Shown here: one piece after another, positions 1,394 through 7,097 of the stretch
Layout: each line of letters opens with the position of its first letter
Numbering within the stretch: position 1 is the first letter of the stretch
Sequence record: PZ386973.1
DNA: 64,000 nt
Source: a phage
Direction: 5' to 3' (one strand)
Program-made: the position numbers and the translations under genes
Notes under the pieces: generated by a model
Told to the model about the DNA's origin: nothing
The model's database searches: none
The model's input: the letters and a program-made list of their open reading frames with translations, nothing else

Positions 1394-2016
1394 AACAATA
1401 CTCCTGTGTTGGAAATGAAATAAGTTTTCTTTAGGACTATTCAGAAAGAATAGAACAACTGTTACTGTCAATTTCTCAACAAATTAATCGCAAATACTGA
1501 AGTGGGGTGGCAACTTCCACTTTCACGCTGCGCTGCTGCCTCATTATACCGCACAAATCCTTGAGGATGGCCGCTAAGCCAGATTTGCTCACCTAATGCT
1601 TCATATACTAGCTCATACTAGATGCAATATAACTTACAGAATCACGTCTCGGTAGTTTTTCACTCCTCCCATCTCACTTCACAACCACCTCATACTAGGT
1701 TGCTTCGAGGCCTTACCAGGGTTCCTATGGGACGCAGATCGCTAAGTATTCTATTAACTATTTGTTTAAAAACTAACACGTAACAGTTAAAACAACCCTT
1801 AATGGGGCAGCCTAACTGTTCCGTATCGCGGATTGTAAACAAGAAAAATTAGCAAAATCAATTTTTACTAATGTCTCTCAATTCAATATAAATATTATAT
1901 CAAGATTTTGGGCATCCTGCAAGTAAAATTTTCCGGATGGTGCTATCATTGGTCTTGAGTACGGATAAAACCGAGCCAAAATGACTCGGTAATCAGAGTT
2001 CAGCTAATAAAAATCA

Positions 2017-2406
2017 TTAGTCATTTAGGCCAGGAACATAGATCCCAACACGGTTTAATTGTTCTTTAGCTTCTTTAAGAATATCTGGAGTGTACTCCCA
2101 AACATCATCTTCCACCTGTAAAAGATGGGGCGAACAACCATCATCCGGCACACGACATATGGCCAGACCACGTGGATGGAACAAAGAGAAATTTAGGGCA
2201 ACAATCAAGCCCATAGCAGACAATTCATTCCAATCCAATTCCCATTCCCCGGCATATCCAGACAGGAAAACACCAATGCAGGGATCATCTATTTGCTGCT
2301 CCGGAAAAGTGAAGGAGGCTTGTCTTACCCCCAACCAACGTTGTAGTAGCTTCTCCGCACGTCTCACCAAACTAGGGTCAATCTGACGCCAATATACTTG
2401 TTCCAT
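2017..2406 (-). CDS. hypothetical protein, paralog of 2416-2844
   Basis: Track ORF; shares an MGL(I/V)xALN...(I/V)PGL pattern with the adjacent ORF. Confidence 0.45.
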   Translation of the reverse strand: MEQVYWRQIDPSLVRRAEKLLQRWLGVRQASFTFPEQQIDDPCIGVFLSGYAGEWELDWNELSAMGLIVALNFSLFHPRGLAICRVPDDGCSPHLLQVEDDVWEYTPDILKEAKEQLNRVGIYVPGLND

Positions 2407-2415
2407 TCTGCCCCC

Positions 2416-2844
2416 TTAAGCAGTTAAACCTGGGATCATATACCCGAAACGTCGAAGTTTCTGAATCCCCTCATTTACTTCTTCCGGTGAGTAAGACCAA
2501 CCATAACGTTCATTAACCTGAAAACCAGGGGATTCACTAGTCTTATAGTTAACAACGAGGCGATGCTTAGCAGGCATAAACAGCTTATAGTTTAACGCAA
2601 AAACTAAGCCCATTTCATCTAACTCTTTCCAGCCAACAATTTCTTCAAGACCCTCCTCTACCTGAACAATTAAACCAATACAGAGGGCCTCATCAATATC
2701 ATCTTTAAAAGCAAAGGAGATTTCGTTATTCTCACACCATATTTTCAAGGAATTAATAGCCTCATTATACAGGCTAGCCGGGAGAGTACGCCAAAAGTTA
2801 ACCAAAATTGGGTTAGCTTCTTTAGAGAATACATTATTGAACAT
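2416..2844 (-). CDS. hypothetical protein, paralog of 2017-2406
   Basis: Track ORF; tandem duplicate-like. Confidence 0.45.
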   Translation of the reverse strand: MFNNVFSKEANPILVNFWRTLPASLYNEAINSLKIWCENNEISFAFKDDIDEALCIGLIVQVEEGLEEIVGWKELDEMGLVFALNYKLFMPAKHRLVVNYKTSESPGFQVNERYGWSYSPEEVNEGIQKLRRFGYMIPGLTA

Positions 2845-2846
2845 AC

Positions 2847-3353
2847 TTACACCTTAAATTGTTGTAAGGATTTACACATTTCAAGATCCGGGCTAAATTC
2901 TAGCATATAGCTAACAGCTTTTAAATCTTGAAGATTTATCCCAGTCCTACCGTTGACTATAACTGTTGGATACTGATACATCATAGCACCAGCATCATCA
3001 AGCACACACCAATGTTTGAGCTTATGCTTTTCAACGAAGCGAAGAACAGAATTACCCCTAGATAATCCACCACCAGTAAAATCCGTTGTACCAAGAAAAC
3101 GATCGATAAGACCTAATCCGGTCATAATTCGAACGTTCTCCATTTCATTTTTAACAGAAAACCACGAAGATACCCCAACAATCATTATTGAAGAGGGACG
3201 AATAAAATCCTGAAAAGCCTTGAGAAGTGGCTTAAAAACCCAATCACTTCCGAAGAAGATCTTTTCATCATCCGGCGCATGGTGGTGCGAGATGCTCGAA
3301 TTGAGCACCCCATCAATATCTAGAAAAATAACTGGAGTATTACTTATTTCCAT
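2847..3353 (-). CDS. HAD-superfamily phosphatase-like protein
   Basis: N-terminal FLDIDGVL (DxDG motif I). Confidence 0.55.
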   Translation of the reverse strand: MEISNTPVIFLDIDGVLNSSISHHHAPDDEKIFFGSDWVFKPLLKAFQDFIRPSSIMIVGVSSWFSVKNEMENVRIMTGLGLIDRFLGTTDFTGGGLSRGNSVLRFVEKHKLKHWCVLDDAGAMMYQYPTVIVNGRTGINLQDLKAVSYMLEFSPDLEMCKSLQQFKV

Positions 3354-3522
3354 TTTTGTTCCTTTCTAAGAACGTATCATACTCAACCGTATCAACATAT
3401 ATGACACCATAGTCATCGGATTTATAGTCCATTTCCCACAGCTCACAGCGATAACACCAACTACCATCCGCCCATACAAATATATCATCGGGATGTGTAT
3501 ATACAGATTTAACTATAGACAT
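3340..3522 (-). CDS. hypothetical small protein
   Basis: Track ORF, overlaps its neighbours in operon fashion. Confidence 0.35.
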   Translation of the reverse strand: MSIVKSVYTHPDDIFVWADGSWCYRCELWEMDYKSDDYGVIYVDTVEYDTFLERNKNGNK

Positions 3523-4337
3523 ATTTGTTTCCCTGGCATATAAGGTCTACCCTCTAAATGAGCTTCCACACGAGCAATAAAATCAGGATCACTGAAAGCA
3601 TCTACCGCACCTTTACTCCAGTAAGGGACCCCACGTTCTTCCAGCTGGTACATCTCACTACGAGTCATACCTTGATAGCCGGGCTCCGCTGCTAGAGCAC
3701 TATCATAGTAGTTAACAACCATAAGTTTCGCAGCAGTCAAATTAAGAACAGGAAATAATTCCCAGTAGAAGTTAATTACTTGGTTAGAGCAACCAACTAC
3801 AATAATCATATCTTGACTGGTAATACTGTCAAAAACATTATACATTTCTGCGTATGCAGGAGCATGCTCTCCAAAGAAGATTACATTAGGTTTAGCCCAT
3901 TTATAATCATCCGGATCGATAGAACTGTATCCTACATCAATAATCCGTTTATTGCTACTATTGTATCTATCAGCTACAACAACCTCTTTTAAATATCCGT
4001 GAATGTGCAGAATGTCACTATGTGGAACGCCAGCACGCTCAATAAGGTCATCAACGTTGGTAGTCAAGTTTACTACTTGACCAGGGTATTGTTTATGCCA
4101 TTCACCAATACGCAAATGCGCAAGATTGGGTTCGACAGTTTTTAGCTCTTCACGACGCTTGTTATAAAACATATGGGTTTTATGGTAAAAATTACCACGA
4201 AAGGCATGAATATTACATACTTCTTCTAGATCATAATCATCCCACAATGCTTTACCACTAGCAGTATCAGTACGAAAAGCTCGTACACCACTTTCAACGC
4301 TCAAACCTGCACCGCTAATAATAATTACTCTACGCAT
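3513..4337 (-). CDS. Sir2-like NAD-binding protein
   Basis: GAGLSVESGVRAFR (sirtuin GAGIS..SG motif), TTNVDDL (TQNID-like), HIHG catalytic His; no Zn-ribbon cysteines seen. Confidence 0.6.
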   Translation of the reverse strand: MRRVIIISGAGLSVESGVRAFRTDTASGKALWDDYDLEEVCNIHAFRGNFYHKTHMFYNKRREELKTVEPNLAHLRIGEWHKQYPGQVVNLTTNVDDLIERAGVPHSDILHIHGYLKEVVVADRYNSSNKRIIDVGYSSIDPDDYKWAKPNVIFFGEHAPAYAEMYNVFDSITSQDMIIVVGCSNQVINFYWELFPVLNLTAAKLMVVNYYDSALAAEPGYQGMTRSEMYQLEERGVPYWSKGAVDAFSDPDFIARVEAHLEGRPYMPGKQICL

Positions 4338-5014: not shown

Positions 5015-5113
5015 AGCTTTCTCCTCTCAAATTTATAAATCTATTATATATAAATTTTTGGCTGAAAGCAAATAAAATAAAAGCCAGGTCGACTAGCAAC
5101 CCGGCTGATTAGC

Positions 5114-6991
5114 TTATTTAGCTCGAATATCCTGATGTTTCACTCTGCCCATCACCTCGTGCTGTTTGCCGGGGTTAAATGGACGAGCACCTGGATTTCC
5201 AAGATACCCACAAACTCGACGAGTTACTTCAAGAGTTTCGGGGTCATGATTACCACAGATAGGGCACTTAAATCCATCTTCGGATGCTATTGTTTCACCT
5301 AAGAATCCACATTTACCACAAGAATCCACTGGAGTATTAATACCGAAGTAATGAACCTTACTAGCAGCATAATTAATAACCCATTCCAGTGCATCTGGGA
5401 ATCGTTTCATATCCGGTAGTTCCACATAGGAAATGCATCCACCAGAAGCAATCGGCGTAAAATTAGATTCATAGTCGAACTTCACGTTTGGAGCAACCTT
5501 ACGCTCCACATCTAGGTGGTGCGAGTTAGTGTAGTAACCTTTACTAAGAATATCTTCATGCTCCGGGAAATATTCACGATCTAAACGGCAGAAACGATCA
5601 CATAAGGATTCAGATGGTGTAGCATACAGACTATAGCCTAACTGAGTCTCTTCCTTCTTCTGATCCACTCTATCCCGCATATATTGTAGAACACGTTGTA
5701 CAAACTTAATACAGGTCTCGGACATTGTATCTACATCTTTGCCAAACATAAATTGTAGCATCTCATGGCAACCAATATATCCCAGAGATACAGAAGCACG
5801 GTTATAGAAATGATCAAATACATATTCATCAGGCCCCAAGCGTAGTCCAAAGGCTCCTGACATATAGAGGATGGGTGCGGCTTTAGCTTGAATGTATTTT
5901 AAGCGATCAACTCTCCACTCCAGTGCTTTAAGCGCGGTATCCACACGTAGCTCAAGCAAATCAAAGAATAGATCAATGTTCCCTTCAGCTTCGATAGCAA
6001 TTCTAGGCAAGTTTACAGAAACAACACCTAAGTTATTACGACCGGCAGTTTCTCCATCTTCTGCAGCAGCTAGGAACGAACGGCAGCCCATAGAAACTTT
6101 ATAGTCACCAGTAACTTCCACAACCTTATCATAGCTGATGTAATCAGGATACATACGTTCAGCAGTACATTTCATAGCTAACTTCTTGATGTCATAATTA
6201 ACATCCCCTGGTTTCATATTTACGCCATCACGAAGTACAAATACCAGTTTCGGGAAGATAGCTGTACGTTTATTGATACCTAAACCATCCATGCGTACTT
6301 TCAGTATTGCTTTCTGTACTAGACGTGCTTCCCAAGAAGTTCCTAGACCAAAACCAAAGGTAATAAATGGACTCTGACCATTAGAGTTGAACATGGTATT
6401 GATTTCATATTCTAAACCCTGACAAGCGTCATAGACTTCTTTTTCAGTCATCTCCGTAGCCATTACGGATGCTTTAGCTTCATCCTTAGTCCAACGTTTT
6501 GCAAACGCATGATTTTTGTCATAGGATTTACGAACATAAGGGGCTAATACTTCATCAAGGCGATCTACAGAAGTACCACCATACTGATGGGAGCTAACCT
6601 GAGTAATAATTTGAGCAGTAATAGCCGCCGCAGTAGTGATAGAGTTTGGAGTGCTAATTTCAGCATTACCAACTTTCATACCATTCTTCAACATATCTTC
6701 CAGAGCTACCAGACAACAGTTAGTCATGCCTAATGCAGCATAATCAGCATCATGGAAATGAATATCCCCAATCATATGAGCATTTCGAATCTGAATTGGC
6801 ATTTCTTCTAGAATTAGATACTTACTCAATTCACCTGCAAGCATATCCCTTTGTGTAGGGAAACGTTCTGAGGGTTTATTGGCATTATTAAATAGCAGTT
6901 CTTCATCTGCTGACCCTTCGATAATCTCTTTGCAGTTTCTAATTAACGCCTGCATTTCTTTATATTTTAGTTCTTCATTACGATTCATCAC
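5114..6991 (-). CDS. nrdD: anaerobic ribonucleoside-triphosphate reductase (class III)
   Basis: 625 aa; C-terminal glycyl-radical motif RRVCGYLG preceded by CGKCGF...CPICG zinc ribbon. Confidence 0.88.
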   Translation of the reverse strand: MMNRNEELKYKEMQALIRNCKEIIEGSADEELLFNNANKPSERFPTQRDMLAGELSKYLILEEMPIQIRNAHMIGDIHFHDADYAALGMTNCCLVALEDMLKNGMKVGNAEISTPNSITTAAAITAQIITQVSSHQYGGTSVDRLDEVLAPYVRKSYDKNHAFAKRWTKDEAKASVMATEMTEKEVYDACQGLEYEINTMFNSNGQSPFITFGFGLGTSWEARLVQKAILKVRMDGLGINKRTAIFPKLVFVLRDGVNMKPGDVNYDIKKLAMKCTAERMYPDYISYDKVVEVTGDYKVSMGCRSFLAAAEDGETAGRNNLGVVSVNLPRIAIEAEGNIDLFFDLLELRVDTALKALEWRVDRLKYIQAKAAPILYMSGAFGLRLGPDEYVFDHFYNRASVSLGYIGCHEMLQFMFGKDVDTMSETCIKFVQRVLQYMRDRVDQKKEETQLGYSLYATPSESLCDRFCRLDREYFPEHEDILSKGYYTNSHHLDVERKVAPNVKFDYESNFTPIASGGCISYVELPDMKRFPDALEWVINYAASKVHYFGINTPVDSCGKCGFLGETIASEDGFKCPICGNHDPETLEVTRRVCGYLGNPGARPFNPGKQHEVMGRVKHQDIRAK

Positions 6992-7097
6992 ACCCTCCTT
7001 CTCTAACTAAGACTACTATTATAACTCATTCGAGGGCGGATGTCAACAATATTTTACTATAAAGTTCTGTAACATGATCTGAGTCAAAAAATTTTAT

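What the first reader, a model, noticed from the sequence alone, without database searches (positions are those of the whole stretch)
2017..2844. Tandem paralogous genes of unknown function
Two adjacent minus-strand ORFs (129 and 142 aa) share a conserved central MGL...ALN block and a C-terminal (I/V)PGL motif. This indicates a local duplication next to the HAD and Sir2-like genes.
Basis: seen in the sequence. Interest (0 to 1): 0.3.

Follow-up and report, generated by a model that had tools for sequence, protein, structure and literature searches.

The report
Ancient tandem DUF7415 paralogues in T5-like phage

Summary
**Observation: confirmed.** ORFs 2416-2844(-) (142 aa) and 2017-2406(-) (129 aa) are 32% identical over 124 aa (BLASTP E=1e-19). 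They share the MGL..ALN block and the (I/V)PGL tail.

**What they are.**
- The window is a T5-like phage, and the genes are orthologues of T5.106 and T5.107.
- Both belong to Pfam DUF7415 and PHROG 2502, which have no known function.

**What the tools add.**
- Each protein looks like an internal tandem of two DUF7415-like halves plus a C-terminal helix.
- The duplication is ancient. About 520 T5-like records carry both copies, while Serratia Slocum and Pectobacterium DU_PP_V carry one.
- Both copies are under purifying selection (dN/dS 0.06-0.22).
- The downstream copy keeps 15 of 16 family-conserved positions. The upstream copy keeps 8 of 16.
- Confident AlphaFold models (pLDDT 87 and 92) match nothing in the PDB.
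- The genes end a tightly packed Sir2 / 60-aa / HAD / DUF7415 x2 early operon. Sir2 followed by DUF7415 is conserved across Demerecviridae.
- Single-domain relatives (~75 aa) sit between nrdD and nrdG, near td/HAD or NUDIX in T4-like phages, and at accessory positions in prophages. A few are fused to dTMP kinase or a MazG-like pyrophosphohydrolase.

**Function.** It is inferred only. The proteins are probably acidic, soluble accessory proteins acting as a non-redundant pair in phage nucleotide/NAD metabolism. Confidence in that is low.

The parts
2416..2844 (-). Upstream paralogue, 142 aa, orthologue of T5.106. DUF7415 family with a degenerate canonical motif.
   Evidence: ORF. Pfam DUF7415 118.9 bits with 2 stretches. 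phrog_2502 E=3e-62. 92% identical to T5.106. dN/dS 0.06-0.10. AF2 pLDDT 87.3. Keeps 8 of 16 family-conserved columns.
2650..2802 (-). N-terminal DUF7415-like half of the 142-aa protein (aa 15-65).
   Evidence: Pfam DUF7415 69.2 bits on the N-half alone, model positions 1-52 of 53. hhalign of the N-half profile against the canonical domain: 54% probability, E=1.2e-4, 53 columns in register.
2482..2643 (-). Central DUF7415 domain of the 142-aa protein (aa 68-121), holding the MGL..ALN block. Motif degenerate: N>K, S>D, H>M, GLA>KHR, G>S, D>R.
   Evidence: Pfam DUF7415 38.6 bits on the C-half alone. Domain HMM E=1.6e-33. Canonical HMM only E=6e-11. Column comparison.
2017..2406 (-). Downstream paralogue, 129 aa, orthologue of T5.107. 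DUF7415 family with the canonical motif retained.
   Evidence: ORF. Pfam DUF7415 108.8 bits with 2 stretches. phrog_2502 E=9e-61. 95% identical to T5.107, dN/dS 0.06-0.22. Keeps 15 of 16 conserved columns. Canonical HMM E=1.4e-24.
2245..2400 (-). N-terminal DUF7415-like half of the 129-aa protein (aa 3-54).
   Evidence: Pfam DUF7415 62.7 bits on the N-half alone.
2083..2244 (-). Canonical DUF7415 domain of the 129-aa protein (aa 55-108): DWNELS..GL..LN..LFHPRGLA..R...G.SP......WEY.
   Evidence: Pfam 35.6 bits on the C-half alone. Domain HMM. Motif comparison with 128 distant representatives.
1965..1990 (-). Intrinsic terminator hairpin plus U-tract that closes the operon, 27 nt after the stop codon of the 129-aa gene.
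   Evidence: Sequence ACCGAGUCAUUUUGGCUCGGUUUUAU. RNA fold -14.8 kcal/mol, z=-3.15, 0 of 200 shuffles as stable. T5 annotates a terminator at the same place after T5.107, and Slocum after its single copy.
2847..3353 (-). HAD-family phosphatase-like gene (T5.105 orthologue), 2 nt upstream of the 142-aa gene. A lineage-specific insertion into the Sir2-DUF7415 module.
   Evidence: Pfam HAD_SAK_2 73.8 bits. Absent between Sir2 and DUF7415 in Roth39, DU_PP_V and Slocum. The homologue in Aeromonas phage PX29 lies next to td.
3340..3522 (-). 60-aa ORF with a W.DGSWCYR motif (T5.104 orthologue). It overlaps both Sir2 and HAD and is a conserved member of the module.
   Evidence: ORF. phrog_5116. 45% identical to the 54-aa ORF at the same position in Klebsiella phage Roth39, E=2e-17.
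3513..4337 (-). Sir2-family gene (T5.102 orthologue), the conserved upstream partner of DUF7415 in Demerecviridae.
   Evidence: Pfam SIR2 86.2 bits, model positions 1-178 of 180. Sir2 is followed by DUF7415 in T5, DaisyDussoix, Roth39, DU_PP_V and Slocum.

Best explanation
SHOWN: The two ORFs are real, co-transcribed genes of a T5-like phage, orthologues of T5.106 and T5.107. They are ancient tandem paralogues of the phage-specific DUF7415 family. Each protein is small, acidic and soluble, and looks like two DUF7415-like alpha+beta halves followed by a C-terminal helix and a PGL tail. The downstream copy (129 aa) keeps the ancestral conserved motif. The upstream copy (142 aa) has lost half of it, yet is just as strongly constrained. 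They are the last two genes of a tightly packed early operon (Sir2, 60-aa ORF, HAD, 142 aa, 129 aa, terminator). INFERRED (low confidence): the two proteins are non-redundant and probably act together, for example as a hetero-oligomer. In that picture the 129-aa protein supplies the ancestral binding surface and the 142-aa protein a diverged, regulatory or scaffolding one. They would act as accessory factors of phage nucleotide/NAD metabolism, binding either a nucleotide-type ligand or one of the enzymes (Sir2, HAD, NrdD or a host counterpart), rather than being enzymes, structural proteins or DNA-binding regulators.
For: Paralogy: E=1e-19. Family: Pfam DUF7415 at 109 and 119 bits against a cut-off of 27, and phrog_2502. 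Internal repeat: each half scores above the Pfam cut-off on its own, and hhalign aligns the halves in register at E=1.2e-4. Real genes: dN/dS 0.06-0.22, like the neighbouring HAD and Sir2 genes. Both copies are retained in 526 records with 1039 places. Asymmetry: 15 of 16 versus 8 of 16 conserved columns, and canonical-HMM E=1e-24 versus 3e-11. The upstream-degenerate, downstream-canonical arrangement is also seen in Klebsiella phage Roth39. Coupling: a 2-nt gap between HAD and the 142-aa gene, a 9-nt gap with AAGGGGG overlapping the stop codon before the 129-aa gene, and a terminator straight after. Nucleotide/NAD context: Sir2 followed by DUF7415 in five Demerecviridae phages. A single-domain gene lies between nrdD and nrdG in KP179 and PSTRCR_127. 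It lies two genes after a NUDIX hydrolase in Slopekvirus. It lies in the frd-td-HAD-nrdA.1-denA-rnlA cluster of PX29. Fusions exist to thymidylate kinase and to dATP/dGTP pyrophosphohydrolase. Acidic, with no membrane segment: pI 4.6-4.8, and a family median of 4.86.
Against: No functional homology was found. Nothing turned up in the PDB by sequence or by fold, nothing in NCBIfam or PADLOC, and no literature. The nucleotide-metabolism link is guilt by association only. In temperate phages the single-domain gene sits at unrelated accessory positions: after P2 gpA, between gpL and gpX, and between the terminase subunits. Most fusion partners are not nucleotide enzymes (Cox, PGDYG, DUF551, ClpX zinc finger, or no Pfam match). 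The nrdD/nrdG gap of T4-like phages is known, from general knowledge, to be an insertion-prone slot. Sir2 followed by DUF7415 is confined to Demerecviridae: rV5-like phages and phage 7-11 carry the same Sir2 with no DUF7415 within 5 kb, so the linkage could be inherited synteny. Heteromer formation was not tested. The conserved N/S/H/G/P residues may simply be turn and helix-cap residues of a very small domain.
Confidence: 0.35

Rival explanations
1. Anti-defence or host-takeover proteins. On this reading, DUF7415 proteins are small acidic inhibitors or sponges that bind a host protein or an immune signalling nucleotide, and the T5 pair is an expanded, specialised version of them.
For: The family is phage- and prophage-restricted, small (about 75 aa) and acidic (96% with pI below 6). 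The genes sit at variable, moron-like positions in P2-like and lambda-like prophages. They are in an early operon in T5. The fold has no cellular counterpart. They lie next to an NAD-dependent enzyme family.
Against: No match in PADLOC, although that library covers defence rather than anti-defence. Purifying selection is strong and the motif is highly conserved across very different hosts, which is atypical of fast-evolving inhibitors. In lytic phages the genes recur inside nucleotide-metabolism clusters. No phenotype data exist.
Confidence: 0.25
2. Dedicated partners of the phage Sir2 enzyme. On this reading the proteins are substrates, regulators or inhibitors of T5.102-type Sir2, and work specifically with it.
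For: Sir2 is immediately followed by DUF7415 gene(s) at the end of the same operon in T5, the window, DaisyDussoix, Roth39, DU_PP_V and Slocum. This holds even though HAD was gained or lost and nrdD is absent in Slocum, where the DUF7415 start overlaps the Sir2 stop.
Against: The same Sir2 (55-62% identical) occurs in rV5-like phages and phage 7-11 with no DUF7415 within 5 kb. DUF7415 is common in phages that lack this arrangement. The linkage may therefore be inherited synteny within one family.
Confidence: 0.15
3. DNA-binding transcription regulators with a winged-helix-like fold.
For: The single-domain model gives many weak Foldseek hits to MarR-family repressors, sharing a helix plus beta-hairpin. 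One relative is fused to a Cox-type regulator.
Against: All those hits have probability of 0.10 or less, TM of 0.32 or less, and rmsd around 12 A. The proteins are strongly acidic, with net charge -7 to -9, and have no recognisable HTH.
Confidence: 0.03
4. The functional labels found in some GenBank records are right, and the proteins are an exonuclease or a tail tube protein.
For: Orthologues are labelled 'exonuclease (ACLAME 70)' or 'tail tube protein' in a few records.
Against: There is no nuclease or tail-tube family in Pfam, NCBIfam or PHROGs, and no PDB sequence or fold match. The genes lie in the early replication and nucleotide region, not the structural module. The labels vary between near-identical proteins.
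Confidence: 0.01

Closest known systems
Pfam DUF7415 (PF24187) / PHROG 2502; phage T5 genes T5.106 (YP_006934) and T5.107 (YP_006935)
   Same: The window proteins are direct orthologues (92% and 95% identity to the T5 proteins). Both pass the Pfam gathering score by a wide margin and match phrog_2502 end to end.
   Different: Nothing differs in membership. The databases give no function. They also do not record the internal repeat, the asymmetric loss of the motif in the upstream copy, or the conserved linkage to Sir2.
Single-domain DUF7415 proteins (about 70-80 aa) of P2-like and lambda-like prophages and T4-like phages, for example the gene between nrdD and nrdG in Klebsiella phage KP179, and PX29p296
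   Same: They share the canonical domain: DWNELS..GL..RIN.EILHPLGLA..R..ETG.S.G.L...DG.WEY. The 129-aa protein keeps 15 of 16 conserved columns. The predicted helix plus beta-hairpin unit is the same (BFVD matches).
   Different: The window proteins carry an extra, divergent N-terminal copy of the domain and a C-terminal helix with a PGL tail. They come as a duplicated pair, and one member has a degenerate motif.
Class I type III secretion chaperones (CesT/SycE-like) and GAF-like alpha/beta folds
   Same: The order of secondary-structure elements in the 142-aa model (alpha-beta-beta-beta-alpha-beta-beta-alpha) matches the textbook topology of CesT/SycE-type chaperones (from general knowledge). 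ExsC, CesT, STM2138 and DR_1245 appear among the weak Foldseek hits.
   Different: The Foldseek probability is 0.08 or less, TM 0.19-0.24 and rmsd 13-18 A. That means no real superposition, and there is no sequence similarity. This is a topological resemblance only.
Small phage ligand 'sponges' and enzyme inhibitors (Tad1, Tad2, Acb2, Ugi-type proteins)
   Same: They resemble these only in general character: small, soluble, phage-encoded, early-expressed and acidic. They are recalled from general knowledge as a possible functional analogy.
   Different: No sequence or fold similarity to any solved structure was detected, and no binding data exist. This is a lead, not a classification.

Membership tests
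Pfam DUF7415 (PF24187) | Whole-protein score at or above the curated gathering score (27 bits) | tested here: met
   108.8 bits (129 aa) and 118.9 bits (142 aa), each with two matched stretches. Each half passes on its own: 62.7 and 35.6 bits, and 69.2 and 38.6 bits.
Pfam DUF7415 (PF24187) | Canonical conserved positions of the domain (W, N, S, G-L, I/L-N, H-P, G-L-A, G, S, D, Y; at least 80% conserved in 128 distant representatives) | tested here: met
   The 129-aa protein keeps 15 of 16, so the feature is met. The 142-aa protein keeps only 8 of 16, having lost N, S, H, G-L-A, G and D, so it is a divergent member.
PHROG 2502 (T5.106/T5.107 group) | End-to-end profile match | tested here: met
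   E=9e-61 (aa 1-129 against profile positions 4-134) and E=3e-62 (aa 11-142 against positions 2-134).
Exonuclease (label 'ACLAME 70' in some records) | Similarity to any nuclease family or structure | tested here: not met
   No nuclease family in Pfam, NCBIfam or PHROGs. No PDB sequence hit and no fold hit.
Tail tube protein (label in some records) | Similarity to tail-tube families, and a location in the structural module | tested here: not met
   No such family matched. The gene lies in the early nucleotide and replication region, between Sir2/HAD and the replication-origin-binding helicase.
Type III secretion chaperone-like fold | Significant structural superposition | tested here: not met
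   Best related hits are 3kxy_J, 4h5b_B, 3epu_B and 5z38_A, with probability 0.03-0.07 and TM 0.19-0.24.
Winged-helix (MarR-like) DNA-binding proteins | Significant structural superposition and a basic DNA-binding surface | tested here: not met
   Probability 0.10 or less and TM 0.32 or less. pI 4.6-4.8 with net charge -7 to -9.
Known anti-phage defence components (PADLOC) | Profile match | tested here: not met
   No family matched either protein at E up to 1.
Hetero-oligomeric pair (proposed working model) | Physical interaction between the 142-aa and 129-aa proteins | not testable with these tools
   No multimer prediction or experiment was available. The only support is indirect: co-retention, translational coupling and the asymmetric motif.

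The most novel reading that the evidence does not exclude
DUF7415 may be a new, phage-specific small fold that binds a nucleotide- or NAD-derived ligand, or docks onto nucleotide-metabolism enzymes. On this reading the T5.106/T5.107 pair forms an asymmetric heteromer, with one canonical and one degenerate site. That heteromer would regulate the phage Sir2/HAD/NrdD module, or sequester a nucleotide-based host immune signal.
Probability: 0.15. Interest if true: 0.65.

Novelty: already known. Interest (0 to 1): 0.3.

Why it matters
As an observation it is ordinary. The gene pair is present, nearly unchanged, in hundreds of sequenced T5-like phages and is already filed under Pfam DUF7415.

It still has some value as a target for experiments:
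- The domain is widespread. A consensus query finds it in 912 of 50,697 phage records.
- It is strongly conserved, predicted with high confidence, and has no counterpart among solved structures.
- It recurs beside nucleotide/NAD enzymes: Sir2, HAD, NrdD/NrdG, NUDIX and td.

The T5 pair offers a natural contrast between a canonical and a degenerate copy in a phage that can be manipulated genetically. That makes it a reasonable entry point for assigning a function to this domain.

Tried and rejected
- **Sequence searches for function gave nothing.** PDB phmmer and profile searches, NCBIfam and PADLOC found nothing. PHROGs gave only 'unknown function' families.
- **Fold searches gave nothing significant.** The 142-aa model against the PDB had a best E of 0.44, and the single-domain model a best E of 0.57. 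BFVD returned only other DUF7415 proteins.
- **Weak topological leads were considered and rejected on their scores.** These were T3SS-chaperone, GAF and MarR-wing resemblances.
- **The literature had nothing relevant.** I searched DUF7415, T5.102/105/106/107 and protein accessions.
- **The word-indexed homologue search found only close orthologues**. The exhaustive profile search was needed to reach the single-domain family. Its multi-stretch hits to very long repeat proteins (P0053, P0072, P0099 and others) were discarded as spurious, because they vanish with a domain-only HMM.
- **Direct BLASTP of the N-half against the C-half of the 129-aa protein was not significant** (E=1.6). The internal repeat therefore rests on Pfam and on a moderate hhalign score.
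- **A universal Sir2 dependency was tested and rejected**.
- **A universal nucleotide-enzyme fusion pattern was tested and found to be only partial**.
- **The database labels 'exonuclease', 'tail tube protein' and, for the HAD gene, 'Sir2' were rejected.**
- **Rfam on the downstream non-coding stretch gave no hit**.

Full report
**Observation.** BLASTP between them gives 32% identity over 124 residues with a single gap, E=1e-19. The MGL(I/V)(V/F)ALN block (aa 65-72 and 78-85) and the (V/I)PGL tail (aa 124-127 and 137-140) are both present. They fall on invariant or near-invariant columns in an alignment of 22 orthologues of both types.

**Genome and orthologues.** The region is 92-96% identical at the DNA level to many T5-like phages (Demerecviridae, Markadamsvirinae).
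- In phage T5 the two genes are T5.106 (142 aa) and T5.107 (130 aa), both annotated as hypothetical.
- They are the last two genes of an early operon. In the window it reads, on the minus strand: NrdD (5114-6991), three small ORFs, Sir2 (3513-4337), a 60-aa ORF (3340-3522), a HAD-family gene (2847-3353), the 142-aa gene, the 129-aa gene.
- The genes from Sir2 onwards overlap or are separated by 2-9 nt. AAGGGGG overlaps the stop codon of the 142-aa gene, 9 nt before the ATG of the 129-aa gene.
- A strong hairpin plus U-tract follows at 1965-1990 (-14.8 kcal/mol, z=-3.15). T5 and Slocum annotate terminators at the same place.

**Family and architecture.**
- Both proteins match Pfam DUF7415 (108.8 and 118.9 bits, cut-off 27) with two stretches each, and PHROG 2502 end to end.
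- Scanned separately, the N-terminal halves score 63-69 bits and the central halves 36-39 bits, all above the cut-off.
- A profile of N-halves aligns in register with a profile of the canonical domain over 53 columns (hhalign E=1.2e-4, probability 54%). Direct BLASTP of the two halves is not significant.
- Each protein is therefore best read as a divergent DUF7415-like half, then a central DUF7415 domain, then a C-terminal helix with the PGL tail. The internal repeat is moderately supported.

**Structure.**
- An AlphaFold2 model of the 142-aa protein is confident (pLDDT 87.3, pTM 0.82). Its elements run alpha, three beta strands, alpha, two beta strands, alpha.
- It superposes on BFVD models of other DUF7415 proteins, including the other paralogue type (TM 0.84/0.91, rmsd 1.5 A).
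- Nothing in the PDB matches: best E 0.44 for the 142-aa model, and best E 0.57 for a single-domain model with pLDDT 92.2.
- Weak resemblances to T3SS chaperones, GAF domains and MarR wings have probabilities of 0.1 or less and are rejected.

**The two copies are real, old and unequal.**
- dN/dS against T5, NBSal003 and DaisyDussoix is 0.06-0.10 for the upstream copy and 0.06-0.22 for the downstream copy. That is in the range of the neighbouring HAD (0.04-0.09) and Sir2 (0.08-0.27) genes.
- tblastn finds two places in essentially every T5-like record (526 records, 1039 places).
- The exhaustive HMMER search gave 128 distant DUF7415 representatives, and 16 alignment columns are at least 80% conserved among them. 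The 129-aa protein keeps 15 of these. The 142-aa protein keeps 8, having lost N, S, H, G-L-A, G and D.
- A canonical-domain HMM scores the two proteins at E=1e-24 and E=3e-11.

**History of the duplication.**
- Serratia phage Slocum has hyp / Sir2 / one DUF7415 gene, whose start overlaps the Sir2 stop, then a terminator. It has no nrdD there.
- Pectobacterium phage DU_PP_V has nrdD / Sir2 / two small ORFs / one canonical DUF7415 gene.
- Klebsiella phage Roth39 has Sir2, a 54-aa WCYR ORF, an upstream degenerate copy and a downstream canonical copy, without HAD.
- T5, DaisyDussoix and the window add HAD between the small ORF and the pair.
- A rough NJ tree separates an upstream clade and a downstream clade. 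The single-copy, canonical relatives (P0049, P0050, P0052, which are Slocum-like) sit at the base of the upstream clade.
- So the duplication predates the split between the Klebsiella and E. coli/Salmonella T5-likes. Motif loss in the upstream copy came after the duplication, and HAD is a later insertion.
- The 60-aa WCYR ORF is conserved from T5 to Roth39 (E=2e-17).

**The wider family.**
- Full-length two-domain relatives are few. Most relatives are proteins of about 75 aa consisting of the canonical domain alone.
- A consensus query finds the domain in 912 of 50,697 phage records.
- In temperate phages the gene occupies unrelated accessory slots: after gpA and near DUF3850 in P2-like Aeromonas prophages, between gpL and gpX in P2-like Pseudomonas prophages, and between the terminase subunits in a lambda-like contig.
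- In lytic T4-like phages it recurs in nucleotide-metabolism neighbourhoods. It lies exactly between nrdD and nrdG in KP179 (Jiaodavirus) and PSTRCR_127 (Gualtarvirus). It lies two genes after a NUDIX hydrolase in Slopekvirus. It lies in the frd-td-HAD-nrdA.1-denA-rnlA cluster of PX29.
- Among 75 longer representatives, the recognisable fusion partners are dATP/dGTP pyrophosphohydrolase (2), DUF3850/ASCH (2), and thymidylate kinase, Cox, PGDYG, DUF551 and a ClpX zinc finger (1 each). The rest have no Pfam match.
- The family is uniformly acidic. The window proteins have pI 4.6-4.8, and 96% of single-domain members have pI below 6. There is no hydrophobic segment.

**Mechanism: what is shown and what is inferred.**
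- Shown: the two genes are expressed as part of one tightly coupled early operon, both are selectively maintained, and they differ in whether the ancestral motif is intact.
- Inferred: they are non-redundant and probably work as a pair. One copy would supply the ancestral binding surface and the other a diverged one. They would act as accessory factors of phage nucleotide/NAD metabolism, binding a ligand or an enzyme.
- I put this at about 0.35.
- The main rival, at about 0.25, is a small acidic anti-defence or host-takeover protein. That fits the moron-like distribution in prophages.
- A dedicated Sir2 partner is plausible within Demerecviridae (about 0.15). It is weakened because rV5-like phages and phage 7-11 carry the same Sir2 without any DUF7415 within 5 kb.
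- DNA-binding, exonuclease and tail-tube readings are rejected on charge, location and the lack of any similarity.

**Comparison with what is known, and novelty.** The genes are bona fide members of Pfam DUF7415 / PHROG 2502 and orthologues of T5.106 and T5.107. The finding as written is therefore already catalogued, with function unknown. No paper in the searchable library mentions the family or these genes. This analysis adds the nested (intragenic plus intergenic) duplication, the asymmetric motif decay under purifying selection, the conserved Sir2-DUF7415 core, the recurrent nucleotide-metabolism context, and the absence of any solved structural relative. These make the family a reasonable experimental target, but they do not make the observation surprising. 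Interest 0.3.

Noticed in passing
window 2847-3353 (-): This gene is a HAD-family protein (Pfam HAD_SAK_2, 73.8 bits). Many RefSeq and GenBank T5-like records label it 'Sir2 (NAD-dependent deacetylase)', apparently through phrog_18062. The label looks like a propagated mis-annotation. The real Sir2 is 3513-4337.
   Followed up: partly
window 1394-2016: About 623 bp with no convincing ORF lie between the operon terminator and the replication-origin-binding helicase gene, whose likely start is GTG 1393 after an AGGAG. T5 has a similar 618-bp gap. The stretch holds a TTGCAG-17-TGaTATAAT promoter-like site at 1922-1894 (-) and several short inverted repeats, and has no Rfam match. NBSal003 annotates the helicase ORF as starting about 150 nt further upstream, but in this window that frame has a stop. 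The purpose of the long leader is unknown.
   Followed up: partly
window 3340-3522 (-); L002 5244-5602 (T5.103/T5.104): A 60-aa ORF with a W.DGSWCYR motif is conserved between Sir2 and the DUF7415 genes, from T5 to Klebsiella phage Roth39 (E=2e-17). In T5 the neighbouring T5.103 shares the GxWCYRF core (E=3e-5), which suggests another small tandem duplication. Its function is unknown.
   Followed up: partly
window 5114-6991 (-) and the whole window: An anaerobic ribonucleotide reductase (NrdD) gene is present. tblastn with two phage NrdG activases finds no NrdG-like gene anywhere in the 64-kb window. The phage may rely on the host activase, or the gene may lie outside the window.
   Followed up: partly
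window 3513-4337 (-): The Sir2 protein keeps the GAGxS, TxNxD and catalytic HG motifs. It has no cysteines between the catalytic His and the PNVIFFGE motif, so it appears to lack the usual CxxC...CxxC zinc module of sirtuins. This was read directly from the translation. All NCBIfam deacylase models score well below their cut-offs.
   Followed up: no
L010 6001-6219 (Klebsiella phage KP179); L014 4956-5351 (Providencia phage PSTRCR_127): In two T4-like genera a DUF7415 gene sits exactly between nrdD and nrdG.
   Followed up: partly
orthologues in GenBank (e.g. ESCO40, T5_ev219, GEC_vB_N5, JLBYU43, DU_PP_V gp086): Near-identical orthologues of the two genes are variously labelled 'exonuclease', 'Phage exonuclease (ACLAME 70)' or 'tail tube protein'. 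No family or structure search here supports any of these labels.
   Followed up: yes
window 7018-7046 (-) and 5082-5106 (-): A perfect sigma-70 consensus (TTGACA-17-TATAAT) lies upstream of nrdD, and a 10-bp-stem terminator-like hairpin lies just after it. This suggests that nrdD is its own transcription unit, and that the Sir2-DUF7415 genes are transcribed from a separate promoter, as annotated in T5.
   Followed up: no
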